Positions 3,658 to 62,859 of a DNA stretch of 64,000 bases are shown here, one piece after another. The translations under genes were made by a program, and so were the position numbers. The stretch is from an uncultured Gammaproteobacteria bacterium (GTDB taxonomy: Bacteria; Patescibacteriota; Microgenomatia; UBA8517): the NCBI GenBank assembly GCA_964524515.1, contig CAZGEA010000001.1, forward strand, positions 233,522-297,521, written 5' to 3'. A model generated the notes under the pieces. The model did not search any database, was not told the DNA's origin, and saw only the letters and a list, made by a program, of their open reading frames with translations. Positions within the stretch are counted from its first letter, which is position 1. Each line of letters opens with the position of its first letter.

Positions 3658-3683
3658 TGTAACTACATTATACTATACTTTTG

Positions 3684-3757
3684 TGGACTCGAGAGGGCTC
3701 GAACCTCTGACCTCACGAATGTGAATCGTGCGCTCTAACCAACTGAGCTACGAGTCC
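3684..3757 (-). tRNA. tRNA-Val (anticodon CAC), 74 nt, CCA not encoded
   Basis: The reverse complement folds as a cloverleaf: acceptor GGACTCG/CGAGTCC, D-arm GCTC-AGTTGGTTA-GAGC, anticodon stem CACGA/TCGTG with loop TTCACAT (anticodon CAC), variable AGGTC, and T-arm AGAGG-TTCGAGC-CCTCT. The discriminator A is followed by CAA, not CCA. Confidence 0.85.
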
Positions 3758-30021: not shown

Positions 30022-30037
30022 GTCTTTGTATTATATA

Positions 30038-45357: not shown

Positions 45358-46370
45358 TTAATGATCTTATCAAATTGATCAATGTATTTTTGTGCAATTT
45401 TGCTCCATCCAAAATTACTTGACTGATTAAATGGTTTTCTTCCCCACTTAGTATTTAAAGCTTTTTTAATTAAATTTGAATACTCAATTAAGTTATTCGG
45501 ATCAACAAAATATCCAGCATCACCCACAATTTGTTTTCTAATTGGATCATCTGAACAAACAATTGGTAAATTTGAAGCCATAGCTTCAAGCATCACAATA
45601 CCAAATGACTCATAAAATTGAGTTGAATATGTAAATAAATCACACGATCTATATATTATCGGCATATCTTCATATTTTGATTCAATTATTCTAAATCGTC
45701 CTGGCATCATTCTATTTGCTTGTTCTTCCAATTTACTTTTAAGACTTCCTTTTCCTACAATCAAAAGTGAAACACTATCCAATTTTGAAACAGCATTAAT
45801 AACCAAATCAAATCTCTTAATATCTTCAAGCGCCCCACAAGACAAAACAATTGGATGTTTTAATCCAAAATCTCGCTTTTGACCATTCGGATTAAATTTC
45901 ACAGAATCAACACCATTTGGAATTGTTACAACTTTTACAAATGGCGCAAAATTACGAGCCCAATTACTTTGAAATTCAGTCAAACCAATAAATAAATCAG
46001 GAAAACATAGTAAATTAAATTTATCATCCCTTCCCAATCCAGATTGCCCAGGAATAACTAATTTAGTTTTCTTTCCAAATGTCCATATTTTCGAAAATAA
46101 ACTTTGAAATCCACCATTTGTGGCAAATAAAACATCAGTATCCATTGAAACATTCATCAAAGCCTTAACGGCAAACAAATTCTGATCATTAATTGTAATT
46201 GTTTTATAAAATGAGTTAGTTAGCTTTTCACCAGTTTGATAAACAGTAACATTGTGACCAAGTTGAACAAACTTATTTGAAAGTTCATGCACATATGTCT
46301 CAACTCCTCGATACACAGAACCACTATGCTTACTCAAAAAAACAATATTTAATTTTTTATTCTTTTCCAT
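45354..46370 (-). CDS. Glycosyltransferase family 4
   Basis: ESFGIVMLEAMASNLPIVCSDD. Confidence 0.8.
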   Translation of the reverse strand: MEKNKKLNIVFLSKHSGSVYRGVETYVHELSNKFVQLGHNVTVYQTGEKLTNSFYKTITINDQNLFAVKALMNVSMDTDVLFATNGGFQSLFSKIWTFGKKTKLVIPGQSGLGRDDKFNLLCFPDLFIGLTEFQSNWARNFAPFVKVVTIPNGVDSVKFNPNGQKRDFGLKHPIVLSCGALEDIKRFDLVINAVSKLDSVSLLIVGKGSLKSKLEEQANRMMPGRFRIIESKYEDMPIIYRSCDLFTYSTQFYESFGIVMLEAMASNLPIVCSDDPIRKQIVGDAGYFVDPNNLIEYSNLIKKALNTKWGRKPFNQSSNFGWSKIAQKYIDQFDKIIK

Positions 46371-47713: not shown

Positions 47714-48531
47714 TTTTTATATGAAATCACACTTATACTATCTCCTTTATTTAATATTGTAGCCAAAATATCATATGGAATATTTAATATAGTATTTAAA
47801 AGCCTCCTTTGCATATTAAACAAACTAATTTTAAATTCTAAAATAACACTATTATATTCAAAAATACCAGATCTAGACTTTGCCGTTAACACTTCAAAAT
47901 TATTTCTTTCAAGCAGTATCCTCAATGGAGTTTCAGAAAATTGATAAACATGCTCAAATGGCAATAAATATGGCCACCTTGATTTTGCTATATTAGACTT
48001 CAAACTATTAAAATTTGGAACATCAATATACAATATTCCACCTTTCTTTAAATACTTATATGCCAAACTAATAAACAAGTTTGGGTCTTCAATATGCTCA
48101 AGTGTATGATTCATAACAATAAGATCAAAATAGTTACTCTTAAAATTAACTTTCTCAAAAATATTTTTATTAACCATATGCCCTTTTTTAATCGCTAATT
48201 CAGAATTCTTAGAAGGCTCAACTCCATATGTATCCCAGCCGTGTTTTTTAAAAATATCTAAAAACAAACCATTTGTGCAACCAATATCCAAAACTTTTCC
48301 TTCTTTAGTGACATATTTTTCAATCAATTTATATCGTTTAAGAAAAATATTTTCAAAAATTTTTTGACTTAAATTATATTGATCATCACGATGATAATTT
48401 TCATAATTTTCAGTTTTCTTTGAATCAATATAAACCACGCTACAATTCATACATTGAATAGCACGCCAATTTAATCCAAAAAAAATACCCCTAACATTTT
48501 TTGATTTACAGATATTGCATATAAATTTCAT
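47710..48531 (-). CDS. Class I SAM-dependent methyltransferase with an N-terminal Zn-ribbon
   Basis: CNICKS...CMNCS is a CxxC...CxxC pattern. Motif I VLDIGCTNGLF, acidic post-I residue YGVEPS, and motif IV VMNHTLEHI. Confidence 0.8.
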   Translation of the reverse strand: MKFICNICKSKNVRGIFFGLNWRAIQCMNCSVVYIDSKKTENYENYHRDDQYNLSQKIFENIFLKRYKLIEKYVTKEGKVLDIGCTNGLFLDIFKKHGWDTYGVEPSKNSELAIKKGHMVNKNIFEKVNFKSNYFDLIVMNHTLEHIEDPNLFISLAYKYLKKGGILYIDVPNFNSLKSNIAKSRWPYLLPFEHVYQFSETPLRILLERNNFEVLTAKSRSGIFEYNSVILEFKISLFNMQRRLLNTILNIPYDILATILNKGDSISVISYKK

Positions 48532-48532
48532 A

Positions 48533-49399
48533 TTAATAACCCTCGTTAATCTTCATATATCTACGTTTAAATTTTCTCAAAGGTGTCTCAATCAATGACA
48601 CCAAATAAAATAAACTATTCATCTTTTTCCATACATTAGAAACTATTTTCAACTTAGGAATAAAAAAGACTTCTGGGTAAAAAAAATCTTTTGCAAACTC
48701 TATACCCAATTCATGTTTTAATTTTCTAGATCTTTTATAAACTTCAAAATCACGAGATGACACATCTGATCTTTGTAAATGTGTTGCATGCAAATACGGT
48801 GCGTCAATAAAAACTATTTTTTTCTGAGACCGATCTTGAATCATTTTCTCGTTAATATCTGTCCAACCCCAAGTTCCATGTGGTTTAGACGAATGAATCC
48901 CAGGTATTCTCAAATTAAAAGCTCGCAAATTGTAATGACCAGTACGGCCTGCAAGATGATAATGTCCAGCCTTAGCCTCTTGATAATGATACATATCCCC
49001 TACAAGATTTATTGAAGGAACGACTATCGATTCTATTTTATTGTTTTTTAATTTAATTTGTGAAACAACCTTATTAATAGAGTCATTCCACCATATTTCA
49101 TCACCATCAACCACTATTACCCAATTTAATCCATCATTACCTTTAACTTCTTGCAAATCTAAATCTAACATTTGCTGTCTATATCTTTGCTCATCAAAAA
49201 AACCATCCGTATCAAATTTTTTATAAAAAATCTTATTTTTAAACTTATTAATATTTAATATTTCATCAATTACCAATCTTGTTTTATCTTTACTTCCCAT
49301 ATCCCAAATTCTTACTTTATCAACGCTGTTAATAACAGACATTACCGAATACCAAATAAATCTTCCTTCATTTTTTACCAGAATATGTACTGTTATCAT
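48533..49399 (-). CDS. GT-A-fold glycosyltransferase-like protein (GT2-like, divergent)
   Basis: HILVKNEGRFIWYSVMSV...VDKVRIWDMGSKDKT resembles the GT2 N-terminal pattern. A DGDE (DxD-like) motif is present. Confidence 0.45.
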   Translation of the reverse strand: MITVHILVKNEGRFIWYSVMSVINSVDKVRIWDMGSKDKTRLVIDEILNINKFKNKIFYKKFDTDGFFDEQRYRQQMLDLDLQEVKGNDGLNWVIVVDGDEIWWNDSINKVVSQIKLKNNKIESIVVPSINLVGDMYHYQEAKAGHYHLAGRTGHYNLRAFNLRIPGIHSSKPHGTWGWTDINEKMIQDRSQKKIVFIDAPYLHATHLQRSDVSSRDFEVYKRSRKLKHELGIEFAKDFFYPEVFFIPKLKIVSNVWKKMNSLFYLVSLIETPLRKFKRRYMKINEGY

Positions 49400-50670
49400 T
49401 TTATTTCTTTAAATTTAAAATACACCCATAAAAATGGAATAATAAAGTTCGATAAATTTCCAATCAGCACAATTATTGATGCACCAATATAACCATACAT
49501 GGGAATAAAAACATAACCACTAACTAAAGTTATAAACAAATTAATCGAAGTAGTCACAAAAAATAATTTAGGATATGAAAAATAATACAAAACTGCAGAA
49601 TGAACTGGAATTGATATTAGAAAAATTACCTGAGCAAACAACAAAATCATAAATGGTGTGAAACTCTCTTTATAATTTAATCCATAATAATTATTTATTA
49701 AATAATATCCTATCACCCCGCCAAAAATAAAACCAAGCAAAGAAAGAAAAACAACAAATAATTGTAATTTTTTTAAATATTTAATCGCAGTTCTGTTGTC
49801 ATTAAATTTAGTTAATTTTGGAGCCACAACTGCCGCAATCGCTACAACAATTTGTGGAATAACAGATGTTAAATTAACAGCGACAGAATATACTCCTAAA
49901 TCACTTAATGACAAAAATCTACCAGAAAGCAATGTGTCTAATCTTGAACCAACCGCAGATATAACAGTAAATACGATAACCCATTTATTAAACTTTATAA
50001 ACTCGTAAGCAATTTTATTTTCATTCTTAACATTTAAAAAATTAGGCAAAAATGTAAATGAAACTAAAAAACCCAATAGTGGAATTGAAATATAAATAAG
50101 CAAAGCACTTGAAATTGATAAATATCCAAAAATATACAAAAATACAACAACAATCAACCTAACAAAATTCATTGAAACATTTAACGTTCCCCACACCCAA
50201 AACTTTTGAAGTGCCTGCAAACTACTAGTCGAAAATATAAATAAAGTTAAAGTTAAAACTCCAAACAATGCAATACGAAATGGATTAATCAATTCACTTT
50301 TAAAAAACAAAGAATTTGACAAAAAAGGAACAAAAAACCAAATGATAACTATAATGGTTAAAGATGTTACTAATAAAATTTTTAATCCATATTTTAAAAA
50401 CATTAATGCTTTTTCTTTATCATTATCAATATGCCTACCTACAAAATTAACTATACCTGTATCAATTCCCAATTTTGAAACATCGGATATCAAACTAATT
50501 GCTGTAACTGAAATAAAAAATATTCCAAAATTATTTGTACCTAAAAATCTTGCCATTAATATATAAAATATAATTCCCAAAATCCCGTTTAATATAGTTG
50601 AAGTACTGACTAAAAAAGTTTGGTTTAACGTCCTACTTTTTATTATTTCTTTTATCACTCTCAATCTCAT
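49396..50670 (-). CDS. Wzx-like oligosaccharide flippase (MOP/PST family)
   Basis: About 12-14 TM segments over 424 aa. N-terminus TLNQTFLVSTSTILNGILGIIFYILMARFLG is typical of polysaccharide biosynthesis (PST) proteins. Confidence 0.7.
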   Translation of the reverse strand: MRLRVIKEIIKSRTLNQTFLVSTSTILNGILGIIFYILMARFLGTNNFGIFFISVTAISLISDVSKLGIDTGIVNFVGRHIDNDKEKALMFLKYGLKILLVTSLTIIVIIWFFVPFLSNSLFFKSELINPFRIALFGVLTLTLFIFSTSSLQALQKFWVWGTLNVSMNFVRLIVVVFLYIFGYLSISSALLIYISIPLLGFLVSFTFLPNFLNVKNENKIAYEFIKFNKWVIVFTVISAVGSRLDTLLSGRFLSLSDLGVYSVAVNLTSVIPQIVVAIAAVVAPKLTKFNDNRTAIKYLKKLQLFVVFLSLLGFIFGGVIGYYLINNYYGLNYKESFTPFMILLFAQVIFLISIPVHSAVLYYFSYPKLFFVTTSINLFITLVSGYVFIPMYGYIGASIIVLIGNLSNFIIPFLWVYFKFKEIK

Positions 50671-53242
50671 ACATCATAAGTATAACAACAATTAAAACTA
50701 ATATTGATACGAAAGTAATCACCAAACCAATCCTAAAATAATCCTGGCCTAAATATTCAATTGAAATCTGTTTCCAATTTGGCTTTACATAAAATAAATT
50801 TAAAAAAGAAAATAATGGATAACTATTACCAACCAATTGATCATTATTTTTCAAATTCCACAACTTATCATAAGTATCTTTTAATAAAACCCAATTAACA
50901 TTAGAATTATCACTTACAAAATGTCTCCATGGTCTATCAGATTTATAATCTAAATTATAATTATTTGCAGGCAATACTTTTATTTTGTCCTTATCTAAAT
51001 CTGAAATTCTATAAGTTTTAAACTTACTAACATATTTTTTTGAAGTCTCAACAGCCTGATTATAATTCTTTTCTGGAGCTATAAAAATAGTATTCAAAAC
51101 TGAAAAGTCAGAATCATTTTCAATTTCCAATTCTTTAATATTCTCATCAATTTTTATTTTAGTAATAGTCCAATTAAATTGTTTTATATCATTTTTATTT
51201 GTTGATAAGAATTTATCACCAAACTTAATTTTGAGAGGATTACCATTAGAAAATGTTCTAAATCCAATGTAATAATCACCAACTATATATTTATTCGTAA
51301 TGTTAATAATAATTTTTTCACCTTGTTTTGATGAATAAAATATATTCTTGTTATAAACCATATTTCTTAAATCAAAACCACGAATTAAAAGTTCATATTT
51401 CCATTTTAAATAGTTAGCATTATCTCCTATTGCCCAACTATTTTTCACAATTTTATTAGTATCAATAAAATCCTTTTGTAAAAGTGATGAAACTAAATCA
51501 TTATCATCTGCATTATTAAATATTACTTCAACAGTATCAGCTGAAATTTCGTCTGGATCAAATGGTTTAAAAATTCCGTCTTCAAAAAATAATTGAGGAA
51601 ATTGATTTGGTAAATTTATTTGATAAGGTTCGCCAATTACCAAAAATACTTTATCAAAACCTACAATTCTTTTTTCAGGAAAATCAATTTTATAAATATT
51701 AATATTATCAATACTTTTTGAAGCCATTCCAAGAGAAACAAACCTTGCATTCATTTTTACTTGGTCAATCTTATCGTTTATATCCAATGGGATATTTTTG
51801 ACTACACCTGAAAAAATTACATTATTTATTCCCAAAAATCTAAACCAATCTAAAAAATCAAAATTATACATGAAATTAAAGGCATCTCCTCCCTTATTCA
51901 TCAACTTAAATATCGGCAAATTGATCAAATCTCGACCACTAATTCCTTGATTATTTTCAGTTTGATATGTAAATGGGTGAAAATATGGCATCCACAAAGC
52001 TCTTGAAAAATTTTCTTGATTTAAATACTGATAAACATTTTTCAAATTATTACCACGACTTATCATTAGTGTGCCATTTAAAGTATTACTAAAAACTGGA
52101 AAAACTAAAAAACTAAAAAATAAAATAAATGTATAAAAAATATAAGGTTTTATTTTTACAAATCTAATAGAAATTAGATTATAAGTATAAGAAACTAAAA
52201 GAGATGTTGTCATTGCAGTAATCACAAAAAATTTACTTGAATCTCTAAAAATGAAACCAAAAAATATTTTGGAAGTTAAAAAAATATTCACAAACCCAAA
52301 TGGCTCAGTTTCACCTTTCAATAAAAACACTGATGCTAGAAAAATTAATCCCAGCGATATCAATTTTCTTGATGGTTTCAAAAAAACACCCAATATGATA
52401 AACACAAAAACAAATGCAAACAAAAAACTCGGATATGTTATTAACCCATATTGGTTTAACGGCCAATGTGGTTGATAAAACGTTAATCCATTCAATAAAG
52501 AAAAAAATCTACTATTTAATTGAACCGGCAAAAAACTCTCATACATTCCACTAATTGCTGGATATAAAAAATAAGAAAATAACGGAATCAAAATAATAGT
52601 TGAAAATAACGCTTTAAATGCAATCTTTCTCTTCCAAAGAGAATAAAAAAGAAAACTAAAAAACAAGACCAAAAAGGCAATTCTGAAATCAGCGATTGAA
52701 CAAAGGAAAATTACCAAAAGAAACTTGATAAATTTTTGCTTAGTAAAATATATTTGAAAATTAATAAATGTCAAAAATACGAAGGGTGCCAACCCATACG
52801 CTAAATAAACTCCAACTTGCCCACCATCAACCAATAAAATTGAATATGTGTTAATAGTATAAATAAATGTACAAAGTATAGATGATAAAAAATTTAACTT
52901 AAATCTTTTTGCTAATAAATATGATCCAATAATGGAAAAAAACAAACCCGGAAAATAAAAAAGTAATCGAACTATTAAATCATTGTCTAATTTTAAAAAA
53001 AGTCCCAATATCGAATATACAAACATTATTGGCGATATCCAAAATAAGGATTGTGGTCCACCAAAATTATTTGCTCTTGAAACCCAGCTTGATGGTTCAC
53101 CAAAATTATCTATAAAAGCATTTTCATAAAAATACGGGGCATCACCCCAAACAAGTGGTGAATTTAAAAAAAACGACCTATACGCTAAAAATAAAATTAA
53201 AAAAACTGGCAATATAAATATTATTTTTTTAATTTTTAACAT
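50633..53242 (-). CDS. Giant (869 aa) membrane protein: N-terminal polytopic domain (about 14 helices) plus a C-terminal extracytoplasmic domain of about 450 aa; GT-C-like (YfhO/AftD-like architecture, putative)
   Basis: First-loop acidic motif VWGDAPYFYE after TM1, a dense run of hydrophobic helices to about residue 400, then a beta-rich hydrophilic region. Confidence 0.45.
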   Translation of the reverse strand: MLKIKKIIFILPVFLILFLAYRSFFLNSPLVWGDAPYFYENAFIDNFGEPSSWVSRANNFGGPQSLFWISPIMFVYSILGLFLKLDNDLIVRLLFYFPGLFFSIIGSYLLAKRFKLNFLSSILCTFIYTINTYSILLVDGGQVGVYLAYGLAPFVFLTFINFQIYFTKQKFIKFLLVIFLCSIADFRIAFLVLFFSFLFYSLWKRKIAFKALFSTIILIPLFSYFLYPAISGMYESFLPVQLNSRFFSLLNGLTFYQPHWPLNQYGLITYPSFLFAFVFVFIILGVFLKPSRKLISLGLIFLASVFLLKGETEPFGFVNIFLTSKIFFGFIFRDSSKFFVITAMTTSLLVSYTYNLISIRFVKIKPYIFYTFILFFSFLVFPVFSNTLNGTLMISRGNNLKNVYQYLNQENFSRALWMPYFHPFTYQTENNQGISGRDLINLPIFKLMNKGGDAFNFMYNFDFLDWFRFLGINNVIFSGVVKNIPLDINDKIDQVKMNARFVSLGMASKSIDNINIYKIDFPEKRIVGFDKVFLVIGEPYQINLPNQFPQLFFEDGIFKPFDPDEISADTVEVIFNNADDNDLVSSLLQKDFIDTNKIVKNSWAIGDNANYLKWKYELLIRGFDLRNMVYNKNIFYSSKQGEKIIINITNKYIVGDYYIGFRTFSNGNPLKIKFGDKFLSTNKNDIKQFNWTITKIKIDENIKELEIENDSDFSVLNTIFIAPEKNYNQAVETSKKYVSKFKTYRISDLDKDKIKVLPANNYNLDYKSDRPWRHFVSDNSNVNWVLLKDTYDKLWNLKNNDQLVGNSYPLFSFLNLFYVKPNWKQISIEYLGQDYFRIGLVITFVSILVLIVVILMMYEIESDKRNNKK

Positions 53243-53408
53243 ACAAATATAATAACCAAAACAATGTGAAGAAAAATAAATAATTTGAGATTCTTATTGA
53301 AAAACCATACTTATTAAAAAATAACACTATGATAAGAAAAAAATTTATTAAAATAATTAATAAATATCCCAGTTTACGAATCATATAAGGTGAAGTATAA
53401 CAGACTAT

Positions 53409-55283
53409 ATGAAAAACTATATTTACTTTATTTTAGTCACAACTTTATTTTTAATACCTATTCTAGTTAATACAAAAATATTTACTAAAAGAGATAATGA
53501 TTACCAAAATTTTTTTAAGCCCATCTATATTTATTCTAAAAATTCAATAACTAATGACCATATTTTTCCACTTTGGAATAGAATGTATTTTGCAGGTACA
53601 CCACTTTATCCTGATCCACAATCGCAAATTACATATATTTTTAATATTATTTTACTTTTTATTCCAATTGATTTAGGCGTAATAATATTAATCTACATTC
53701 ACATACTCTGCTCTGGAATCCTTGCACACAAATTTTCTAAAAACATTCTAAATTTTGATAATAAAACTTCATTATTCTTTGCAACTGGCTACATGTTTTC
53801 TTACAAAGTTGCTACTTATATTGAAGCTGGACATATCGGTTTAATATATTCCTGGACTTGGATACCACTATATTTATTAGCACTATTTAAATTAATAAAA
53901 AACGATAAACAGAAATACTGGGTACTAATTCTCTGTTTTAGTTCATATGCAATTTTAGTTAATCATATAATTATTTGGTCATATTTATTAATTCTCTCAC
54001 TTACTTTACTATTAGTACCAATTATTCGCCAAAACTTAACGAGAAAAATAGTATTAATATTTGCATTTGCTTTATCAATTTCAATAAATAGCTTTATATT
54101 AATTCCACAATATTTGTGGTCAAAAGAAACATCTAGGAAAACATTAATTACCAACCCAGATCTTTACCCCAAATGGACAAACAAAATAGAAACTATATCA
54201 AACATGATTACACCTTTAAAATTTAGCATCGAAAAAATTCAAAAAAATGATAATGAAAAAATAGTGTCAGCCGGAACTATAATCAGTTTATTTGCAATTC
54301 TTGGTTTGACTAAATTAAACAAAGCAAAAAAAATATTAACAATATTAATAATTACTCTAATATTCTTGATTTATTCTAAATTTCTAATAAACGACTTTAT
54401 TAAATTAACTAGAGTTACAACTAGACTTTCTTTTATACCGACAATACTAACTTTAATTTTATCTTCTGTTTGGATAAACAAAATCAAAAATATTAAAACT
54501 AAACTTATTTTAATATTATTTATAATAATCGAATTCACATCATTCTTTTGGCTATATATAAACAAAAAACCAAACAATACAAAATACATATCAGACAATA
54601 TCCCAAATAAAATAAACTCAAGAGTATATTGCACAACTAGATGCATATCTCAAGAAATGGCCTCAGAACATAAAATATACTTAATTGATGGTTATGGCAC
54701 GCTTCCACAATACAATTTTTACAAAAATGCATGGGGCCTAACTGGGGGCTACTGGAATTACTATACATTATCAATTCCACCATTTGGGCAAATACTTTAT
54801 GAACAAAAGAAACCAGATATCGAACTTTTAGGCGAATACTCAACAAAATATATCTTAAGTCCGTACAAAATAGAAGACAATAATTTAATTAACATCAAAA
54901 CTTTCGAAAATATTTACATTTATGAAAATAAACTTTTTAAAGAAAAAATTACAAGTAATTCACCATTTGCTTATAAAATAAAAGAGAACGCTAACGAAAC
55001 AAATATTAATTTTGAAAAAAAATTCACTGGTCATCTAAAATTCTCAGAAGTTTATTCACCCGGATGGATTGCGATCACAGAATCACAAATTATTAATAGT
55101 GAAGAAACACCAAGTGGAATTCAATCGTTTCACGTAACAATACCAACATCAAAAATAAAACTTACATACATACCGCCAGGTATCAAAACAGGACTACTCA
55201 CATCTATATTCACTTTAATAATTACTTATTTTTTCTCTTATCACCAAGTACTATTTCATAAATCAAAATCAAAAGTCCAATAA
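53409..55283 (+). CDS. Large (624 aa) polytopic membrane protein, GT-C-like (putative); the only plus-strand gene in the glycan locus
   Basis: TM1 then KRDNDY loop, multiple helices to about residue 400, C-terminal soluble domain, and a final TM-like helix. Confidence 0.45.
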   Translation: MKNYIYFILVTTLFLIPILVNTKIFTKRDNDYQNFFKPIYIYSKNSITNDHIFPLWNRMYFAGTPLYPDPQSQITYIFNIILLFIPIDLGVIILIYIHILCSGILAHKFSKNILNFDNKTSLFFATGYMFSYKVATYIEAGHIGLIYSWTWIPLYLLALFKLIKNDKQKYWVLILCFSSYAILVNHIIIWSYLLILSLTLLLVPIIRQNLTRKIVLIFAFALSISINSFILIPQYLWSKETSRKTLITNPDLYPKWTNKIETISNMITPLKFSIEKIQKNDNEKIVSAGTIISLFAILGLTKLNKAKKILTILIITLIFLIYSKFLINDFIKLTRVTTRLSFIPTILTLILSSVWINKIKNIKTKLILILFIIIEFTSFFWLYINKKPNNTKYISDNIPNKINSRVYCTTRCISQEMASEHKIYLIDGYGTLPQYNFYKNAWGLTGGYWNYYTLSIPPFGQILYEQKKPDIELLGEYSTKYILSPYKIEDNNLINIKTFENIYIYENKLFKEKITSNSPFAYKIKENANETNINFEKKFTGHLKFSEVYSPGWIAITESQIINSEETPSGIQSFHVTIPTSKIKLTYIPPGIKTGLLTSIFTLIITYFFSYHQVLFHKSKSKVQ

Positions 55284-55605
55284 AAAATGATTGAAAAGCA
55301 TACACTGCAGTTCTTTCAGCCCAAACATTTATTTCAAAAAAACGCATAATAGCTGTAAATAACCAAAATACTAAAGTTATTACGAACAATGCCCTACTCC
55401 TCGCACCTAATAAAAACACAGACAAAACTATTGAAAAAAAAGTAATAAAATTTACAGTAATAGGAAAAAATGGATGAAAATATCCTGCTGATCTCAAAAC
55501 GAACAATAAAATAAGAATAATATTAAAAATTGTTAGTTGAAACTGATGTAAAACAGTCCAAGTGTTCGCTTTATTTATAATATTCTTTAAAAAAAGAAAT
55601 TTCAT
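55222..55605 (-). CDS. Small 4-TM membrane protein, GtrA-like (putative lipid-linked sugar translocase family)
   Basis: 127 aa with four hydrophobic segments. ATGA-coupled (55602-55605) to the upstream giant membrane-protein gene. Size and topology fit the GtrA family; no specific motif was verified. Confidence 0.4.
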   Translation of the reverse strand: MKFLFLKNIINKANTWTVLHQFQLTIFNIILILLFVLRSAGYFHPFFPITVNFITFFSIVLSVFLLGARSRALFVITLVFWLFTAIMRFFEINVWAERTAVYAFQSFFIGLLILIYEIVLGDKRKNK

Positions 55606-58600
55606 TTTTGTATTACCATTTTTCTCTTTAACAGATAAACACTAGTAAATAGCACTGCAGTAACTAATGATACAACTCCACCAAGAACTATCAAATTTTG
55701 CCTTTTATAATATAACCTAAATTTATAGTTACTTTTCGCACTATCAACATACCAAACATTAGCATATAAATTTCCAGTAAAGTGTGTTTCATTAATTTCT
55801 TTATCATCTCCCACAAAAACCATTTCCCAAAGTGGAGAGTAATTTTCAGAAAATACAATCAAATGTGGAGCTTTTACATTGTAGACTTCACCTTCATATT
55901 CGACCGGTGATGTTTTTGTAAATTTAATATCTGGAAGCAATAATTCCGGCTTATTTATTACTTGCTCAAGATATAAATCATTTGAAAAAACTCTATAAAA
56001 ACGAAGGTTCTTATATAACACTTTTGTTCCAAGTGCATCTTTTGTTAGTGGTGCCAACAATTCAATTTTAACATTTGAAACAGTTTGAACAGGCTCATAA
56101 TAAAAGCTAAAAGCTCCCCATTCAGGATAGTTTGGCATTCTCTCAACTTGAGCCTTAACTAAATTTTTTGTATTTCCTTGATTTATCAATATTGCAGCGT
56201 TGTTACCATAAATTTGTTTATAGTCAACAGAAACAAAATAATTAGACATATAGTCAAAACTGCCTATACTGTATTTTGCAGACACATCCTTTTTTGATTT
56301 ATTCATTATTGATAAATAATCACCATCCAAATCCCTCAAATTATTAAATTGACCTTCACCATTTTTAATAAAATTATTATCAACTAAATTATCATTTGTT
56401 ATATTTAATACAATTTCATGATCACCTTTTCCAAAGATTAATGGGGACAATCGAACATAAGTATCATTTAAACTTAAAATTTTAATTTGCGATTGCTTAC
56501 CATCAACAATTAAACTAATTCCTCCATTTAATGGAATACCAAACTTTTCTAAATTATATCTTTCAATAATTGGTGAGTATTCGCCACTCGTATTAACAGT
56601 AAATTTATAAATAACTTTACTCAAATCACGCACTGAAAGTCTATCTACTAAATTTGATTGATTATTTCTAAAATTAGTAAAATCCTCATTCTGTGAATTC
56701 TTTGCAACAATTATAGATTTTGTTTGTATACCTTTTACTTGATTGATAACACTATCATTTTGATTTGCCAAAACAAAATTCTCACTATTAAGGGGAATTG
56801 TTTTAATTGCTTTATCGTAAGGATATGCAAAACTAATTAACTGACTCACTTGCAATTTCAAAGTATCCATATTACCTTCAGGGTACTCATATATATTCCA
56901 TGATCCAAAACTTTTTGATTTCTTTTTAACAATTTGCTCAGGTAATACTGGAGAGAGACTTTCTTGATCACCTTTTTCTAATATCTGTGAAACATTTAGT
57001 TTTTTCAAAACATTATCTGCCCTATACAATTCACCTCTCTTAACACTTGAATAAAACATTTTTACAAGCTGTGAAATTGGCGATTCTGGTGCAGTAATTG
57101 GTAAAAACAAAGTTTCACGATCAACAACTAATGCCAAAACTGATTCAATTGCATTGTAACCCCACGAAAATCTTTCAATCTCATTATCTGGATAATTTAT
57201 TATTCTTCCATTTTTATTCTGGTCAATATACTTTGCTGCATCAAATAAATAACTAGGAAAATGAATATAAAAATTATCATGCATCGAAGCTCTAAATATT
57301 TTCCCCTGAACAAGTGGGTAATTATAAACTAAATTTCCAAAAATTATTATGAACCCAAAAAAAGATAATAAATACAAATATATTTTGGGATATTTATTCT
57401 CTTTAAAATTACTATTAAATGAATAAAACAAAAGTGAAATTAAACCTGCAACAGAAATAATCAAAAGTGGTGTAAAAATATACCAAGGACTTCTAAACAA
57501 ACTAAAAAATGGCAGATGCTGACTCAAAAAATGAAATATATACCCCGTAGGTAAATGTGTTCCGACACCCAAAAATACACCAATTAACATCATCAATCCA
57601 AATCCAATATATAAGTAATTTTTTTCCTTTTTCCAAAAAATTAATGCTATAAAACTAAGACTTGGAAGTAAAAAACTAAATATCAAAAAAGGTAATTTAA
57701 AAAAATAATTAACTGCATATGGGATATATAAGGGCTGATTAGTTGTCGAATCAAGTGAATACCAATCCCAAGCCCCTTGTTGCCTCCAAATATTTAATAT
57801 ACTAGTATTTTCCGATAAACTATCGATCCAATTTGTATACCCAATCTTATCAATACTTCCTGATGGTGCAATTGTTCCAAATATAAAACTAAATGTTGGA
57901 AAAATCCAAATTGCATTAATTAATAAAATTGGCACAGCTAAAGTTAAAAAATTTAAAAATGAAAATTTCAAAAAATCAAAAGTCCTTACACTTAGAACTA
58001 CACCAAACATATATATAGCAATAACTGCAAAAAAACACATAAAATATGCAGGATTAATTCCAGAACCAGATAGAATAATTCCAACAATCATTGAAAAAAA
58101 CAAAGCTTTTGGTCGACTTATACTTTTTTTATTCATATATATAATTAACACCAGTCCAAAAGGTATTGCTGAAATTAACGACAAATTAGAAACTTTTACA
58201 TTCTCCCAAGTGTTAAATACATAAACATTAAAAACATATATCGAAACAAAGATTAATTGTGATATTTTATATTTTTCAAATATCACTTTTGATAGTGAAT
58301 ACGAAGCAAAAACGATTAAACTAAACCAAAACAGTAAACTAAATAATTCAACTAATTGAAGTGAAAAGCCAAGTTTATATGGTAAATATTGAACAAAATG
58401 AAAAAACAAACCTGCAGTTGAAGATGAAAAATCACCACCAGCATTTCCAATTGGATTCCATGTAAAAAATCTCCTCAAAAACCATATTTCAGGATTCAAT
58501 GGAAAATTCGTATCTGATCCGTTTATTAATGCGTCTCCTCGCCCTTTAAACCAAACAATTGGAGTCAGAGAAAATAGAATGAGAATAATGTTTAACCAAT

Positions 58601-58634
58601 TACTTGAAACAAAACGATTAATCCTTTGCTTCAT
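55602..58634 (-). CDS. Giant (1010 aa) membrane protein: N-terminal polytopic GT-C-like domain (about 450 aa) plus a C-terminal extracytoplasmic region of about 550 aa and a terminal TM anchor
   Basis: TM1 then the GRGDALINGSDTNFPLNPE loop and many helices. The C-terminal hydrophilic beta-rich region ends with a hydrophobic helix VVSLVTAVLFTSVYLL. Confidence 0.45.
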   Translation of the reverse strand: MKQRINRFVSSNWLNIILILFSLTPIVWFKGRGDALINGSDTNFPLNPEIWFLRRFFTWNPIGNAGGDFSSSTAGLFFHFVQYLPYKLGFSLQLVELFSLLFWFSLIVFASYSLSKVIFEKYKISQLIFVSIYVFNVYVFNTWENVKVSNLSLISAIPFGLVLIIYMNKKSISRPKALFFSMIVGIILSGSGINPAYFMCFFAVIAIYMFGVVLSVRTFDFLKFSFLNFLTLAVPILLINAIWIFPTFSFIFGTIAPSGSIDKIGYTNWIDSLSENTSILNIWRQQGAWDWYSLDSTTNQPLYIPYAVNYFFKLPFLIFSFLLPSLSFIALIFWKKEKNYLYIGFGLMMLIGVFLGVGTHLPTGYIFHFLSQHLPFFSLFRSPWYIFTPLLIISVAGLISLLFYSFNSNFKENKYPKIYLYLLSFFGFIIIFGNLVYNYPLVQGKIFRASMHDNFYIHFPSYLFDAAKYIDQNKNGRIINYPDNEIERFSWGYNAIESVLALVVDRETLFLPITAPESPISQLVKMFYSSVKRGELYRADNVLKKLNVSQILEKGDQESLSPVLPEQIVKKKSKSFGSWNIYEYPEGNMDTLKLQVSQLISFAYPYDKAIKTIPLNSENFVLANQNDSVINQVKGIQTKSIIVAKNSQNEDFTNFRNNQSNLVDRLSVRDLSKVIYKFTVNTSGEYSPIIERYNLEKFGIPLNGGISLIVDGKQSQIKILSLNDTYVRLSPLIFGKGDHEIVLNITNDNLVDNNFIKNGEGQFNNLRDLDGDYLSIMNKSKKDVSAKYSIGSFDYMSNYFVSVDYKQIYGNNAAILINQGNTKNLVKAQVERMPNYPEWGAFSFYYEPVQTVSNVKIELLAPLTKDALGTKVLYKNLRFYRVFSNDLYLEQVINKPELLLPDIKFTKTSPVEYEGEVYNVKAPHLIVFSENYSPLWEMVFVGDDKEINETHFTGNLYANVWYVDSAKSNYKFRLYYKRQNLIVLGGVVSLVTAVLFTSVYLLKRKMVIQK

Positions 58635-60684
58635 ATATATTTAACTCATTTATAACCCATGAAGCAAAATTATGAGTTCCAATTTGTTCAATTCTTAAAT
58701 ATCTATATTTTTCAGGTTTCATGTATATATTTATAATGCCACTTGTATCAGGTTGTATTGCTTTTGAATAATAAACTTCTTTCCAATTAATTTTATCATT
58801 CGATAAACTAATTCTATAGCCAACTTTATCCTGATTGGAATTATTATAGGAGTCAATTTGAATATGAGCAATCGCCATTTTATCTTTAAAATCAATATCA
58901 AGATATTGATAATTTGAATATGGAAGCTGTGAATCCCAAAATGTCTCTCTTTTTGCGTCACTTAAAAACTTTATGTTTACCTTATTTAATGTTGAAGTCA
59001 CGATATAATTCTTTATCTTCCTCTCATTTGATAAATACCCCTTCAATCTACCCCTTATTTCACTAGTTGTATCAAATACTTCATTAAGCTGACTATCATA
59101 TCGAAAAGAATAAATAAAATTCATATCAATATTTTTATTCTTCACCATTTTTGCCAAATCATCAAAAACTCTATAGTATCCAAAACTTTTACCATCAATC
59201 TCCTTATAATCTTGGCTTTCAATATCCCATAAATAGTAATTATCAAAAAATTTACCGGAAAGATTTAATCTTGATTGATTATAAACCATAAATGTATGTC
59301 CAAAGCCTGACTGAAAAGGTAATATTTTATCCTTTTCAGCCAAACCATAATATGATTTATCACTTTCACTATACAAAATAAAATCATTTTGGTTATCAGG
59401 AATAATCAAAGAAGCTTTTCTCAAAATTTCAATTCGCTTTTTAGCATCACTATTTAACATATTAAAATAATTCTGAGTTAAAAATAAATTAAATACAAAA
59501 AATAATATTAAAAAAATATTCAATACTTTTCCCTTACTAAAAATTATTGGCAATATCATCGCCATCCCAATATTCAAAAAATATAAGTTACGTGAATCAA
59601 AATATACACTAAATCCATAAACCCCTGGTGATAACGAATATATAAAACTATTTAAAACAATAAAAACCAATCCGATCATTAGTATTAACTTATTATTCTT
59701 ATCGCTTGTCTCACAATATCTCGTTTTAAAAATTAAATAAAATATAAAATTTATAACAATAACAAGAGATACTGATATAACATTTTCTGAATATCTATCA
59801 AAACTTGTAGTTCCAATTCCTCCAGTTATTTTATTAGGAATTAAAGAGGTAATTTTGTTTGAAAAATAAATTAAACCATTTGAACTTAATATTAATTGAG
59901 GTACCACCTTAAACGGCGAAGTAAGCATATTAAGTATTAATGTTTGCGTACTTTGGGTTTGAGTTACAATTTGCTTATCATTTGTAGCTTGGTGAGGTAA
60001 AAATAAAGCAAAAACTCTAAATATACTGTAAATTAAAAATGATATAAAAATAAATTTAAAAACATATATTTTATATTGCTTCTTATTTGAGAAAAAAAGA
60101 TAAAATAAATAAACAATAAACATTCCAATTGATATTTCTTTAAAAAGAAGAGAAGCAAAAAGAAAAAAAACAGAAACTAATAAATCCTTTTTATTTTCAG
60201 AAGAAAATGATTTTATAAAAAAAATGAATGAGAAAATTGCAAAAATTACTGCTCCATGTGTGTTTAAATCTGTAACAACCCAAGTTGTAGCTTGAATACC
60301 CGATGCAGAAATACCAAAAATAAATGCAACTATCAATGAATATTTTTCACTATTAGATAGCTCACGCGCCAATAAATAAACTAAGCAAGTAATAATTATA
60401 TGAAAGATAATACTCACAAGTGCCCAAGGGAAATAGTTAACTTTAAATATTCCAAATAAAAAATCAAAAACCAAATCACGTAGTGGAGTGTAATGTCCAA
60501 TCTTTGGGTAAAAAAAATTAGCAATTCTATTTATAAAAGGTAGCGACTGATTCAAATAACCAGATCCAAAGGCCTGCCATTCATCTTGTTGATAGAACCC
60601 CTTAAAAAGGGGCAGATAACATACAACAATTACAAATAAAATTAATAAAATAAACTTATTTTTTTTAAAAAATTGCCACCTCAT
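58618..60684 (-). CDS. Giant (688 aa) GT-C-like membrane protein with a C-terminal discoidin-like (F5/8 type C) carbohydrate-binding domain
   Basis: TM1 then the FYQQDEWQAFG (DE) loop and about 11 helices. The C-terminus YQYLDIDFKDKMAIAHIQID...YRISLSNDKINWKEVYY...YRYLRIEQIGTHNFASWVINELNIYEA matches the discoidin pattern (W..V, S.DG.nW, R...~ E..vy). Confidence 0.5.
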   Translation of the reverse strand: MRWQFFKKNKFILLILFVIVVCYLPLFKGFYQQDEWQAFGSGYLNQSLPFINRIANFFYPKIGHYTPLRDLVFDFLFGIFKVNYFPWALVSIIFHIIITCLVYLLARELSNSEKYSLIVAFIFGISASGIQATTWVVTDLNTHGAVIFAIFSFIFFIKSFSSENKKDLLVSVFFLFASLLFKEISIGMFIVYLFYLFFSNKKQYKIYVFKFIFISFLIYSIFRVFALFLPHQATNDKQIVTQTQSTQTLILNMLTSPFKVVPQLILSSNGLIYFSNKITSLIPNKITGGIGTTSFDRYSENVISVSLVIVINFIFYLIFKTRYCETSDKNNKLILMIGLVFIVLNSFIYSLSPGVYGFSVYFDSRNLYFLNIGMAMILPIIFSKGKVLNIFLILFFVFNLFLTQNYFNMLNSDAKKRIEILRKASLIIPDNQNDFILYSESDKSYYGLAEKDKILPFQSGFGHTFMVYNQSRLNLSGKFFDNYYLWDIESQDYKEIDGKSFGYYRVFDDLAKMVKNKNIDMNFIYSFRYDSQLNEVFDTTSEIRGRLKGYLSNERKIKNYIVTSTLNKVNIKFLSDAKRETFWDSQLPYSNYQYLDIDFKDKMAIAHIQIDSYNNSNQDKVGYRISLSNDKINWKEVYYSKAIQPDTSGIINIYMKPEKYRYLRIEQIGTHNFASWVINELNIYEAKD

Positions 60685-61673
60685 TTAATAAAATTCGCCA
60701 AAAATTTTCTCCCCCCTTGAGATGTCAAAAATACATACATTATTACATTCGTTGTTATCCACACTACAATCGGTTCATACAATCCCAGTATTGTTCTGTG
60801 TTTAATCGATCTGAATATTCCATAAAACAAAGGTCCAATAATTGTCTCAGAATACAGTACCCACAATGCCAATTTAAAAATCGATTTTTTGTCTGATGTA
60901 TCTATCCATGTCCAATATCTTTTTTCATTTTTCACAAAAAAAGTTTTCTTAAGATTTCTAACTCTTTTATCAATCATAGTTTTAATGTCTGGAACAGTCA
61001 GATGATGCAAACCAGCGGATTTAACATACGCATATTTATCAAAACCTTTATTTAAAAGTATTACTAAATTATCAAGTTCATAAAACCTTTTTCTTTTTGA
61101 AATCTCATCAATCGACAGTATTTGTTTAGTTCTAAAAACACACAAACCCATTGATAAAATATTATTTTTATTAAATATCATCAAATCGTATCCATTTCTT
61201 TTTTCCGTTATTAATGACTCTACACTTGGAGTTAAATAAACAAACAAAGGGTCTCTTTGTATAGGATCAAGAGTTAAATATTTATTAAGCAATGGGTCAC
61301 TTTTATAAGAAACAAAACCTGTAGTAGAAGCTATGAGTGTTTTATCATTTTCAAGAGGTTCCACCATCTTCTTAATCCAGTATGAAGTAGGTAAATCTAT
61401 ATCTGCATCAAGGTATGTATAATATTTTCCACTTGCTCTCTTTAAAGAAATCATCTTTGCTGTTAGATAATCATTTTCTTTGTTCTTAATTATCTTTACA
61501 AATTTATATTTCCTGGCAATTTCAATTGTCCCATCAATACATCCATTATCCACAACAAAAACTTCGATTTTGCCACTATATTTTTGCTTTTTAATTGAGT
61601 CAAGACAATTCGCAATATTTTTTTCTTCGTTATATACAGGAATAGAAATAGTAATAGAAGGCATTCTTTTCAT
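60681..61673 (-). CDS. GT2 polyprenyl-phosphate sugar synthase-like (GtrB/DPM1-like: GT-A domain plus C-terminal TM helices). The start is trimmed to the MKRM methionine, which removes a 68-nt overlap.
   Basis: ITISIPVYNEEKNIANCLDSI...VFVVDNGCIDGT, and a C-terminal LALWVLYSETIIGPLFYGIF...IVVWITTNVIMYVFL. Confidence 0.7.
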   Translation of the reverse strand: MKRMPSITISIPVYNEEKNIANCLDSIKKQKYSGKIEVFVVDNGCIDGTIEIARKYKFVKIIKNKENDYLTAKMISLKRASGKYYTYLDADIDLPTSYWIKKMVEPLENDKTLIASTTGFVSYKSDPLLNKYLTLDPIQRDPLFVYLTPSVESLITEKRNGYDLMIFNKNNILSMGLCVFRTKQILSIDEISKRKRFYELDNLVILLNKGFDKYAYVKSAGLHHLTVPDIKTMIDKRVRNLKKTFFVKNEKRYWTWIDTSDKKSIFKLALWVLYSETIIGPLFYGIFRSIKHRTILGLYEPIVVWITTNVIMYVFLTSQGGRKFLANFIK

Positions 61674-61674
61674 A

Positions 61675-62859
61675 TTATTCAAAATTAAACATAGTTGGAT
61701 AAATCTTTTTATAATAAAACTTATTATTAAGTTCAACTGCATTTAATTGATACTTTTTATAATTTGACATTATTTTTTTAATTGCAGCCACTAATTGAAT
61801 CGAACTATAGTAATCAATTACGATTCCCGCTTTGTGTTTCTTGATCACATTTGAAAACTCAATAATATTTGTTGTAATCACTGGTAAACCAAAATTAATA
61901 TATCTTTTTGGTTTTCCCGGATCAGTATAAAAAGAAACAGTTCCTGGCTCTGGCATATATGGTGCAATTCCAATATGACAATTTTTCAAAATTTTTTCAA
62001 ATTGACTTTCCTCAACATATCCATAAAACTTAACAGACAGTGGGCTATTCTTAGCACGCCTCTTAAAATATAACTCTTCAGGTCCAGAGCCAATTATTTC
62101 AAAACTAATATTTGGAAAGTTTTTATGAATTACTTCCTGATTATCAAAAATTATATCCAAACCTTGGCTTTTTTTAAGTACACCAATAAATCCAATTTTA
62201 ATTTTTTTATCGTGAACTTTCATGTTTGAATTAAAATTCGCTTCACCAGTTGCAATAGGAACAACTTTATAAATTCCCAACCTAGGAATTATATTTTCTC
62301 TTTTTCGAGGTAAAATCATTCTCTTGTGCAAGAAAAATGTATTATCAGAAAAAAGTGTAGCAAATTTATCAAATTGCCAATAAACTCTTCTCATCAAAAC
62401 AACAATTTTTTTCTCGTGATTAAATGGATAATAATCCCAAACCCAAAATAAAGTATTTTTTACAAGTCCGACTTTCTTAAGAAGAATTCCGATTGTCGCT
62501 GGAAAGGCATTAACAGTAAAATAGATATCAATTTTTCCGTATCTAATATAAACACTGGCAAAGGCCCAAAAAATCTGAACGAAAGTTAAAATTGATTTCA
62601 GCGGAAGTAAAAAAAATAAAAGTTTTTGAGAAATACTAAATTCATAAAAAGGAGTCTCTTTTTCCAAAATTCCATCTTTATATATTGCTAATTTATTTAT
62701 TTTCTTTTTGTTTCCTATCTGATAAAAACCAGCCAGAAACAAAAAGACATACTTATTATTCTCACGTAAATAATCCAATATTTTTCCGGAATTATCATAC
62801 GGAAAATAATTTACATAAAATACTTTTTTTACGGAAAAATCACTCTTATCTTTTTTCAT
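61675..62859 (-). CDS. Glycosyltransferase-like protein (GT-B-like C-terminal half, divergent)
   Basis: The C-terminal region IGIAPYMPEPGTVSFYTDPGKPKRYINFGLPVITTNIIEF resembles a GT-B donor-binding half. The N-terminus has no clear match. Confidence 0.45.
   Translation of the reverse strand: MKKDKSDFSVKKVFYVNYFPYDNSGKILDYLRENNKYVFLFLAGFYQIGNKKKINKLAIYKDGILEKETPFYEFSISQKLLFFLLPLKSILTFVQIFWAFASVYIRYGKIDIYFTVNAFPATIGILLKKVGLVKNTLFWVWDYYPFNHEKKIVVLMRRVYWQFDKFATLFSDNTFFLHKRMILPRKRENIIPRLGIYKVVPIATGEANFNSNMKVHDKKIKIGFIGVLKKSQGLDIIFDNQEVIHKNFPNISFEIIGSGPEELYFKRRAKNSPLSVKFYGYVEESQFEKILKNCHIGIAPYMPEPGTVSFYTDPGKPKRYINFGLPVITTNIIEFSNVIKKHKAGIVIDYYSSIQLVAAIKKIMSNYKKYQLNAVELNNKFYYKKIYPTMFNFE

What the first reader, a model, noticed from the sequence alone, without database searches (positions are those of the whole stretch)
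50633..60684. Four consecutive giant polytopic membrane proteins (869, 624, 1010 and 688 aa), one inverted and one ending in a discoidin-like domain
Seen: each protein has TM1 followed by an acidic loop motif, then 10-14 hydrophobic helices and a large hydrophilic beta-rich C-terminal domain. 58618-60684 ends with a sequence matching the F5/8 type C (discoidin) carbohydrate-binding pattern (S.D..NW ... YLRIEQ...WVINELNIYEA). 55602-58634 has an additional C-terminal TM anchor. Inference: these are paralogous GT-C-like glycosyltransferases or polymerases whose extracytoplasmic domains read or measure the growing glycan, by analogy with AftD/EmbC-type enzymes, although in an apparently non-mycobacterial, low-GC genome. 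Four such proteins in tandem is unusual and poorly described outside Actinobacteria.
Basis: partly seen in the sequence, partly recalled or inferred. Interest (0 to 1): 0.65.

Follow-up and report, generated by a model that had tools for sequence, protein, structure and literature searches.

The report
Conserved GT-C glycosyltransferase cluster in Microgenomates
The four giant membrane proteins are real lipid-sugar-dependent (GT-C) glycosyltransferases, one a structural look-alike of mycobacterial AftD. Together with an overlooked small membrane protein they form a gene block kept in the same order across a whole class of ultrasmall (CPR) bacteria, whose surface sugars are essentially unstudied.

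Summary
All four ORFs sit exactly at the stated coordinates, and D688 ends in an F5/8-type-C (CBM32) domain.

It encodes a 4-TM protein with no known family and lies directly after C1010 in about 60 independent loci.

The array is not a one-off. The order GT2 - D - C - E - B (inverted) - A - Wzx - GT2 - methyltransferase - membrane protein - GT4 (window 45354-61742) recurs in Daviesbacteria, Woesebacteria and Blackburnbacteria genomes.

The most likely function is extracytoplasmic building or branching of a conserved cell-surface glycan from polyprenyl-phosphate sugars, with the beta-sandwich domains holding the acceptor. The sugar, the acceptor and the role of E127 remain inferred.

I found no paper describing this block. 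I rate it a new variant of a known kind, of moderate interest.

The parts
60681..61742 (-). GT2_353: family-2 (GT-A) glycosyltransferase with a hydrophobic N-terminal segment and moderately hydrophobic C-terminal segments. It is the candidate polyprenyl-phosphate-sugar synthase. Its stop overlaps the D688 start (ATGA).
   Evidence: Pfam Glycos_transf_2 E 1.3e-24. Only generic GT2 hits in NCBIfam. Homolog within 10 kb of the C gene in 18 of 27 loci, usually just upstream of D. ATGA junction. Only N-terminal generic similarity to E. coli GtrB.
58618..60684 (-). D688: PMT_2-type GT-C glycosyltransferase with an invariant Q-D-E motif after TM1, a periplasmic alpha/beta domain and a C-terminal CBM32/discoidin domain (about 572-688). 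It overlaps the C1010 start by 17 nt.
   Evidence: Pfam PMT_2 27.2 bits (cut-off 26.1) and F5_F8_type_C E 3.5e-11. AF2 pLDDT 89.7. Foldseek matches to CBM32 modules, AftD and STT3. 1521 representatives at E<=1e-3, in long (about 690 aa) and short (about 550 aa, no discoidin) forms. Directly upstream of C in 25 of 27 loci with room.
55602..58634 (-). C1010: AftD-like GT-C glycosyltransferase. It has 11 N-terminal TM helices, a soluble GT-C alpha/beta domain (about 455-660), CBM-like beta-sandwiches (about 670-976) and one C-terminal TM helix (979-1009).
55222..55605 (-). E127: conserved small 4-TM protein of no known family, translationally coupled to C1010 (ATGA overlap). It is either a dedicated partner of C1010 (possibly the counterpart of AftD TM13-16) or a lipid-sugar flippase.
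   Evidence: ORF. Family alignment with invariant LRSAGYFxP and WAERT motifs. No Pfam hit even at E<=10 and no PDB profile hit. No similarity to E. coli GtrA. Directly downstream of C in 25 genome loci and in 34 of 34 E-seeded metagenome loci that contain upstream sequence.
53409..55283 (+). B624: short YfhO-like GT-C glycosyltransferase on the opposite strand. Its 3' end overlaps the E127 3' end by 62 nt.
   Evidence: Pfam YfhO 22.7 bits, below the cut-off of 28.5, and NCBIfam PgfM2 C-terminus E 1.6e-6. Homologs pass the YfhO cut-off (49.1 bits). hhalign TM domain to the A family 98.6%, to the C family 94.6%. C-terminal module homologous to C (97%) and A (93%). Always inverted relative to C (17 of 17).
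50633..53242 (-). A869: second AftD/YfhO-like GT-C glycosyltransferase with a CBM-like soluble region and a C-terminal TM anchor.
   Evidence: hhalign to the C family 99.8%, E 9.3e-30 over 759 columns. 6 of 33 family members hit Pfam PTPS_related, some above the cut-off. Weak CBM-like PDB profile hit at about 660-733. Downstream of C on the same strand in 19 of 19 loci where it is present.
49396..50670 (-). Wzx-type (MOP family) flippase, overlapping the end of A869 by 38 nt.
   Evidence: Pfam Polysacc_synt E 8e-20. NCBIfam MOP flippase. Follows A in the conserved order.
45354..49399 (-). Rest of the conserved block: weak GT2 (48533-49399), SAM methyltransferase (47710-48531), polytopic membrane protein u454 (46349-47713) and a GT4 (45354-46370).
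   Evidence: Pfam. Same order after Wzx in many loci, with counts. u454 resembles the D-family N-terminus only weakly (hhalign prob 49%).

Best explanation
The region is the core of a conserved extracytoplasmic glycan-assembly cluster of a Microgenomates-type CPR bacterium. Shown: the four large proteins are GT-C-fold membrane glycosyltransferases. Three of them (A869, B624, C1010) are ancient paralogs of an AftD/YfhO-like lineage. They share the catalytic TM domain and a C-terminal beta-domain plus TM anchor, and differ in how many CBM-like beta-sandwiches are inserted. The fourth (D688) is a PMT_2-type enzyme fused to a CBM32/discoidin module. Also shown: GT2_353, D688, C1010 and E127 have overlapping stop and start codons, and the 11-gene order is conserved across the lineage. 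Inferred mechanism: cytoplasmic GT-A enzymes (GT2_353, possibly GT2w_288) load single sugars onto polyprenyl phosphate. The lipid-linked donors and/or a lipid-linked oligosaccharide are flipped by the Wzx-type protein and possibly by E127. On the outer face, the four GT-C enzymes each add a specific residue or linkage to a growing cell-surface polysaccharide. The invariant loop-1 Asp acts in catalysis, and the beta-sandwich/CBM32 domains hold the polymeric acceptor, as in AftD and EmbC. The strict C-E adjacency and codon overlap suggest that E127 is a subunit of C1010.
Against: No biochemical data exist for any member. The window's own A869 and C1010 hit no Pfam or NCBIfam model, and B624 is below the YfhO cut-off. 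GT2_353 is only a generic GT2 and resembles GtrB only in the N-terminal GT2 core. E127 is not a GtrA-family protein by sequence. No arabinofuranose/pentofuranose donor genes (UbiA-type, DprE-type) were found among the 61 window ORFs scanned against Pfam, so the sugar is unknown. The acceptor (polysaccharide or glycoprotein) is inferred only from the CBMs and the context. No structures were predicted for A869, B624 or E127.
Confidence: 0.62

Rival explanations
1. The GT-C enzymes O-glycosylate proteins (S-layer, pilins, Ser/Thr-rich regions of surface proteins) rather than a polysaccharide. This would resemble PMT enzymes, or the streptococcal Pgf system (PgfS GT2, PgfE epimerase, PgfM1/M2 YfhO-like).
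For: D688 is PMT_2-type with the D-E loop-1 motif. The B624 C-terminus matches NCBIfam PgfM2 (E 1.6e-6). GT2_353 weakly matches PgfS, and an epimerase lies two genes upstream. YfhO-type enzymes glycosylate protein IDRs in streptococci (PMC12041528, abstract seen).
Against: A, C and D carry carbohydrate-binding-type beta-sandwiches. The best structural match of C is a glycan-acting enzyme. The block sits with Wzx, a Wzy_C protein and an initiating phosphoglycosyltransferase. CBMs could still recognise a glycan already attached to a protein, so this rival is not excluded.
Confidence: 0.2
2. The enzymes only add optional side-chain decorations (seroconversion-like, Gtr-type) to a polymer made by the Wzx/Wzy pathway elsewhere in the island. 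They would not build a conserved backbone.
For: Classical three-component systems do exactly this (PMC11127046, PMC8035078). The flanking GT4 and GT2 genes differ between genomes. D occurs with or without the discoidin domain (13 long, 12 short).
Against: Decoration modules are typically strain-variable. Here four GT-C genes keep order, orientation and even codon overlaps across Daviesbacteria, Woesebacteria and Blackburnbacteria at 30-50% protein identity. That is more typical of a core envelope function in genomes of about 0.8 Mb (contig sizes).
Confidence: 0.12
3. One or more of the proteins are not transferases that use lipid-monophosphate sugar donors. They could be Wzy-like repeat-unit polymerases or ligases, or non-catalytic scaffolds.
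For: One A-family member is named 'oligosaccharide repeat unit polymerase' by NCBI (P0134). A869 and C1010 hit no curated family themselves.
Against: A is homologous over its full length to the AftD-like C family. The invariant loop-1 Asp and the Arg motif are kept in every family. No NCBIfam polymerase model hits A869. A separate Wzy_C protein exists at 37517-38968.
Confidence: 0.06

Closest known systems
Mycobacterial arabinofuranosyltransferase AftD (PDB 6W98/6WBX; Pfam GT-C_AftD, formerly DUF3367)
   Different: About 10-12% identity. C1010 is about 400 residues shorter. It lacks the C-terminal 4-helix bundle (TM13-16) that binds ACP in AftD; instead a separate 4-TM gene (E127) follows. No DPA (arabinose donor) pathway genes are in the window. 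The AftD paper reports homologs across the Actinobacteria class; this is a CPR lineage. The window protein itself does not hit the Pfam model.
Multi-component transmembrane glycosylation systems of Gram-positive bacteria (CsbB/GtcA/YfhO, GtlA/GtlB, GacI/J/K/L) and Gtr systems of enterobacteria
   Same: A GT-A enzyme, a flippase (small 3-4-TM protein or Wzx type) and a YfhO- or PMT_2-type GT-C act on a wall polymer (PMC8035078, PMC11127046). All part types are present here, and they are adjacent.
   Different: This block has four GT-C enzymes in one conserved block rather than one. The small membrane protein is not GtrA-like by sequence and is tied to a GT-C gene, not to the GT-A gene. The block is conserved at class level rather than being strain-variable.
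YfhO family (Pfam PF09586) and streptococcal PgfM1/PgfM2
   Same: The C-terminal beta-domain plus TM anchor of B624 matches the end of the YfhO model and PgfM2. The same module is homologous in A869 and C1010.
   Different: B624 is shorter (624 aa against a model length of 835) and scores below the Pfam cut-off. Only part of the family passes it.
PMT_2 / GT39-GT83-type GT-C enzymes (Pmt, ArnT, GtlB, GacL) with CBM32
   Same: D688 passes PMT_2, has the D-E loop-1 motif, a GT-C fold, and a discoidin/CBM32 domain that binds sugars in characterised proteins.
   Different: It has no MIR or TPR domain. The CBM32 is optional within the family. The gene is codon-overlapped with an AftD-like partner.

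Membership tests
GT-C fold glycosyltransferase superfamily | Polytopic N-terminal TM domain with a conserved acidic residue in the first extracytoplasmic loop | tested here: met
   Asp after TM1 in all four families: C D41, B D31 and D D34-E35 are invariant, A D34 is in >=90% of sequences. TM predictions.
GT-C fold glycosyltransferase superfamily | Three-dimensional match to solved GT-C enzymes | tested here: met
GT-C fold glycosyltransferase superfamily | Use of a polyprenyl-phosphate-linked sugar donor | not testable with these tools
   Requires biochemistry. There is only contextual support: an adjacent GT2 and a Wzx.
AftD (Pfam GT-C_AftD / DUF3367) | Significant match to the family profile | tested here: inconclusive
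   C1010 itself has no hit at E<=1. 11 of 33 family members hit at E<=0.01, and P0068 and P0080 score 32 bits against a cut-off of 26. PDB sequence-profile searches do not reach AftD.
AftD (Pfam GT-C_AftD / DUF3367) | Architecture TM1-11, soluble GT-C domain, CBM beta-sandwiches, TM12 | tested here: met
   Secondary structure of the model. AftD is the best structural match. CBM16/4/22-like hits. AftD architecture taken from 10.1101/2019.12.22.885152.
AftD (Pfam GT-C_AftD / DUF3367) | C-terminal four-helix membrane bundle (TM13-16) that binds acyl carrier protein | tested here: not met
   C1010 ends about 10 residues after its single C-terminal TM. No C+E fusion among 344 retrieved proteins. 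Whether E127 supplies this module in trans could not be tested.
AftD (Pfam GT-C_AftD / DUF3367) | Arabinofuranosyl transfer from decaprenyl-phospho-arabinose (DPA pathway genes present) | tested here: not met
   No UbiA-type or DprE-type protein among the 61 window ORFs scanned against Pfam. The rest of the genome was not seen.
YfhO (Pfam PF09586) | Score above the family's gathering cut-off | tested here: not met
   B624 scores 22.7 bits against 28.5. Some homologs pass (P0178 49.1, P0188 30.3). B624 is therefore YfhO-like, a borderline member.
PMT_2 (Pfam PF13231) | Score above the gathering cut-off, and the D-E motif in loop 1 | tested here: met
   D688 scores 27.2 against 26.1. Q33-D34-E35 are invariant in the family.
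F5/8 type C (discoidin, CBM32) | Profile match and beta-sandwich fold | tested here: met
   43.8 bits against 28.2. Foldseek to CBM32 modules 4A42, 7D29 and 4ZXE with TM-score on target 0.72-0.79, rmsd 2.5-3.5 A.
Three-component (Gtr/Csb-type) glycosylation system | GtrA-family small flippase | tested here: not met
   E127 family: no Pfam hit at E<=10. hhalign to E. coli GtrA (YfdG) prob 0.15%. A Wzx-type flippase is present instead.
Three-component (Gtr/Csb-type) glycosylation system | GtrB/CsbB-type membrane-anchored GT2 that makes polyprenyl-phosphate-sugar | tested here: inconclusive
   GT2_353 has a GT2 domain and hydrophobic ends. It shows only generic GT2 similarity to GtrB and to many NCBIfam GT2 models.

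The most novel reading that the evidence does not exclude
C1010 plus E127 is a 'split AftD'. The 4-TM protein encoded immediately after C1010's single C-terminal TM helix would be the counterpart of AftD's separate TM13-16 bundle, and it has the same predicted in-in topology. The whole conserved block would then be a CPR analogue of mycobacterial arabinan assembly: a cell-wall polysaccharide polymerised sugar by sugar outside the membrane by four specialised GT-C enzymes. It would be a core envelope feature of Microgenomates, a group for which I found no report of a surface glycan.
Probability: 0.2. Interest if true: 0.7.

Novelty: new variant of a known kind. Interest (0 to 1): 0.5.

Why it matters
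CPR/Patescibacteria are ultrasmall, mostly uncultured bacteria with much-reduced genomes, and cultivated members live attached to host cells. A 2024 review I searched for six envelope-glycan terms (glycosyl, polysaccharide, teichoic, S-layer, glycan, cell envelope) contained only one passing use of 'cell envelope', referring to the host. Genomes of roughly 0.8 Mb that keep a block of about 16 kb with four lipid-sugar-dependent outer-face glycosyltransferases in fixed order are probably making a conserved, complex surface glycan. That glycan is a plausible player in envelope integrity or host attachment. The result also extends AftD-like enzymes outside the Actinobacteria class in which the AftD structure paper reported them. 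It gives a smaller, possibly two-chain, version for structural study. Finally, it defines a new conserved small membrane protein family (E127) tied to these enzymes.

Tried and rejected
1. Direct pairwise BLASTP among the four proteins gave only a weak A-C hit (25% over 140 aa). Family profiles were needed to show that A, B and C are related, and they showed that D is not.

2. Sequence searches of the PDB with the single proteins and with family profiles did not reach any GT-C structure. Only structure comparison did.

3. E127 as a GtrA flippase: rejected at sequence level. E127 as the AftD TM13-16 module: could not be tested, because there was no PDB profile hit, no fusion proteins and no structure jobs left.

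4. GT2_353 as a clear GtrB/CsbB orthologue: not supported, only generic GT2 similarity.

5. An arabinose or pentofuranose donor pathway in the window: no UbiA- or DprE-type hit among the ORFs scanned.

6. The promoter/terminator scan around the inverted gene showed no excess over shuffles in this AT-rich DNA and is uninformative.

7. The afdb50 fold library was unavailable.

8. The source's names for the window's own proteins are empty. Taxonomy therefore rests on named homologs (Daviesbacteria, Woesebacteria, Blackburnbacteria).
Full report
OBSERVATION

Each has a polytopic N-terminal region followed by a hydrophilic C-terminal part.

D688 residues 572-677 match Pfam F5_F8_type_C (E 3.5e-11, above the cut-off), and residues 67-218 match PMT_2 just above its cut-off. 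C1010 has a C-terminal TM helix.

Three points were missed. A869 also has a C-terminal anchor, and B624 has a homologous, weaker one. A 127-aa 4-TM ORF, E127 (55222-55605, -), lies between C1010 and B624.

The DNA has 25-30% GC and almost all genes are on the minus strand.

WHAT THE PROTEINS ARE

A869 and C1010 hit no Pfam or NCBIfam model, and B624 is sub-threshold for YfhO. Family-level evidence settles their identity.

- C1010 has more than 320 homologs of about 1000 aa at 43-52% identity, all from Patescibacteria where they are named. 11 of 33 sampled members hit Pfam GT-C_AftD, and two reach 32 bits against a cut-off of 26.
- A869 has 54 homologs. 6 of 33 hit PTPS_related, a family of membrane proteins.
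- B624 has 19 homologs, several of which pass YfhO.
- D688 has 1521 cluster representatives. They come in a form of about 690 aa with the discoidin domain and a form of about 550 aa without it.

The D688 model (pLDDT 89.7) matches CBM32 modules with its C-terminal domain (TM-score on target up to 0.79) and matches AftD and STT3 over the whole chain.

HOW THE FOUR RELATE TO EACH OTHER

Profile-profile comparison gives the following results.

- The A and C families are homologous over 759 columns (99.8%, E 9e-30).
- The B family matches A (98.6%) and C (94.6%) over the TM domain.
- The last roughly 100 residues are homologous in A, B and C (93-98.6%). This segment is a beta-domain with a SExYxPxW-type motif plus the TM anchor, and it is the part of B624 that matches the end of the YfhO model.
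- D shows nothing to C (prob 3%) and only a 42-column match to B.

The array is therefore three ancient paralogs of one AftD/YfhO-like lineage plus one PMT_2-type enzyme. It is not four paralogs.

Every family keeps an Asp in the loop after TM1: C has GSD41TNFP, A has WGD34APYF, B has RxND31, and D has QQD34E35W. The equivalent AftD residue, D41, is essential (10.1101/2019.12.22.885152). A, B and C also share an acidic residue between TM3 and TM4. All four families have an Arg-containing motif before the last TM helices (alignments). These proteins look like active enzymes.

CONTEXT AND CONSERVATION

The window is chromosomal. It carries ParB, RodA, IleRS, FtsZ/FtsA and a dcw cluster at 4-25 kb.

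From about 28 kb to the end of the window it is one minus-strand glycan island. This contains a DUF4012 protein, an initiating phosphoglycosyltransferase, a sugar nucleotidyltransferase, many GT4 and GT2 enzymes, a further PMT_2 protein, a Wzy_C protein, a Wzx, a methyltransferase and an epimerase.

I compared 27 other distinct loci, taken from GTDB-representative genomes and from contigs that encode homologs. Where named, they come from Daviesbacteria, Woesebacteria and Blackburnbacteria. Together with the window they make 28 loci.

- D lies directly upstream of C in 25 of the 27 loci with enough sequence.
- E lies directly downstream of C in 25 of the 26 loci with room for it.
- B is downstream of C in 17 loci and is always inverted.
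- A is downstream of C in 19 loci and is always co-oriented with C.

The full order is GT2_353, D, C, E, B (inverted), A, Wzx, GT2, methyltransferase, u454, GT4, which is window 61742 down to 45354. It recurs in many loci.

A second, independent sample seeded on E (35 metagenome contigs) found E immediately after C in all 34 loci that contain upstream sequence.

In the window, the stop and start codons of GT2_353/D, D/C and C/E overlap by 4, 17 and 4 nt. Measured between longest ORFs, the 17-nt D/C overlap also appears in several other genomes.

MECHANISM

Shown: GT-C identity, the paralogy pattern, CBM-type domains, conserved catalytic-type residues, tight operon structure and lineage-wide synteny.

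Inferred, from the established logic of GT-A + flippase + GT-C systems (PMC8035078, PMC11127046) and of AftD/Emb enzymes:

- Cytoplasmic GT2 enzymes charge polyprenyl phosphate with sugars.
- Wzx, and perhaps E127, flip the lipid-linked species.
- The four GT-C enzymes each add a defined residue to a surface polysaccharide on the outer face.
- The beta-sandwich and CBM32 domains bind the polymeric acceptor.

The sugar is unknown. No DPA-type (arabinose) pathway gene was found among the window ORFs scanned.

The acceptor could instead be a protein, as in PMT or Pgf systems. B624 resembles PgfM2, and D688 is PMT_2-type. I rate this rival at about 0.2. A purely decorative, strain-variable role is made less likely by the class-level conservation.

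E127

It has no Pfam or PDB relative and no similarity to GtrA. It is obligately linked to C rather than to the GT2 gene.

AftD has TM12 followed by a separate four-helix bundle, TM13-16. C1010 stops right after its TM12 equivalent, and E127 is a 4-TM protein with basic, presumably cytoplasmic, ends. A 'split AftD' is therefore an attractive reading, but it is untested. No fused form was seen among 344 retrieved proteins.

NOVELTY

Some family members already carry automatic labels such as 'DUF3367 domain-containing protein' or 'alpha-(1->3)-arabinofuranosyltransferase family protein', so the individual family links are not new.

The AftD structure paper reported homologs across the Actinobacteria class. 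I found no paper linking these enzymes or this block to CPR bacteria.

The conserved multi-GT-C block, its fixed inverted gene, the coupled D-C-E triad and the new small-protein family make this a new variant of a known kind of system.

I score interest at 0.5. The finding is well supported and opens the question of CPR surface glycans, but the enzymology is what a specialist would expect of GT-C proteins in a glycan locus.

Noticed in passing
window 55222-55283; also L006, L011, L018, L027: The 3' ends of E127 (-) and B624 (+) overlap convergently by 62 nt. A similar 57-91-nt convergent overlap recurs wherever B directly follows E in other genomes. This suggests a constrained junction, with possible antisense or termination coupling.
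   Followed up: partly
window 46349-47713 (-) and 43211-44527 (-): Two polytopic membrane proteins (454 and 438 aa) have no Pfam or NCBIfam family. The 454-aa one belongs to the conserved block (homolog in 9 of 27 loci) and weakly resembles the N-terminus of the D/PMT_2 family (hhalign prob 49%). It may be a further GT-C or a polymerase.
   Followed up: partly
window 36067-38968 (-): A further PMT/PMT_2-type GT-C (488 aa) and a Wzy_C (O-antigen ligase/polymerase-like, 483 aa) protein lie in the same island. With these the window holds at least five GT-C-type genes.
   Followed up: no
window 27955-30676 (-): The glycan island opens with a 688-aa DUF4012 protein and a Bac_transf initiating phosphoglycosyltransferase, directly after recO. 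Neither is conserved within 10 kb of the GT-C block in other genomes.
   Followed up: partly
window 4457-25408: This is a housekeeping region: ParB, ribosomal protein L21, RodA, IleRS, FtsZ, FtsA, MurG, FtsW, MraY, a Mur ligase, Ddl, a PBP transpeptidase, MraW and MraZ. The organism therefore makes peptidoglycan, and the island is chromosomal, next to the dcw cluster.
   Followed up: no
loci L007-L031 (record titles): Many MAG records that carry this Microgenomates-type block are titled 'uncultured Gammaproteobacteria bacterium', and one (L022) 'Candidatus Woesearchaeota archaeon'. These labels look like placeholders or errors, given gene content and the named relatives.
   Followed up: no
L002, L004, L005 (downstream of E); L031: In some genomes a carbamoyltransferase (with a DUF5989 peptide in two of the three), or an extra 485-500-aa PMT_2-like GT-C, is inserted after E. 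L031 has two tandem C-family paralogs. The glycan may be carbamoylated or otherwise varied between lineages.
   Followed up: no
window 1580-3463 (+): A 627-aa protein with a Peptidase_C39_2 domain sits next to tRNA-Val (3683-3757) and a signal peptidase. It is unrelated to the finding.
   Followed up: no
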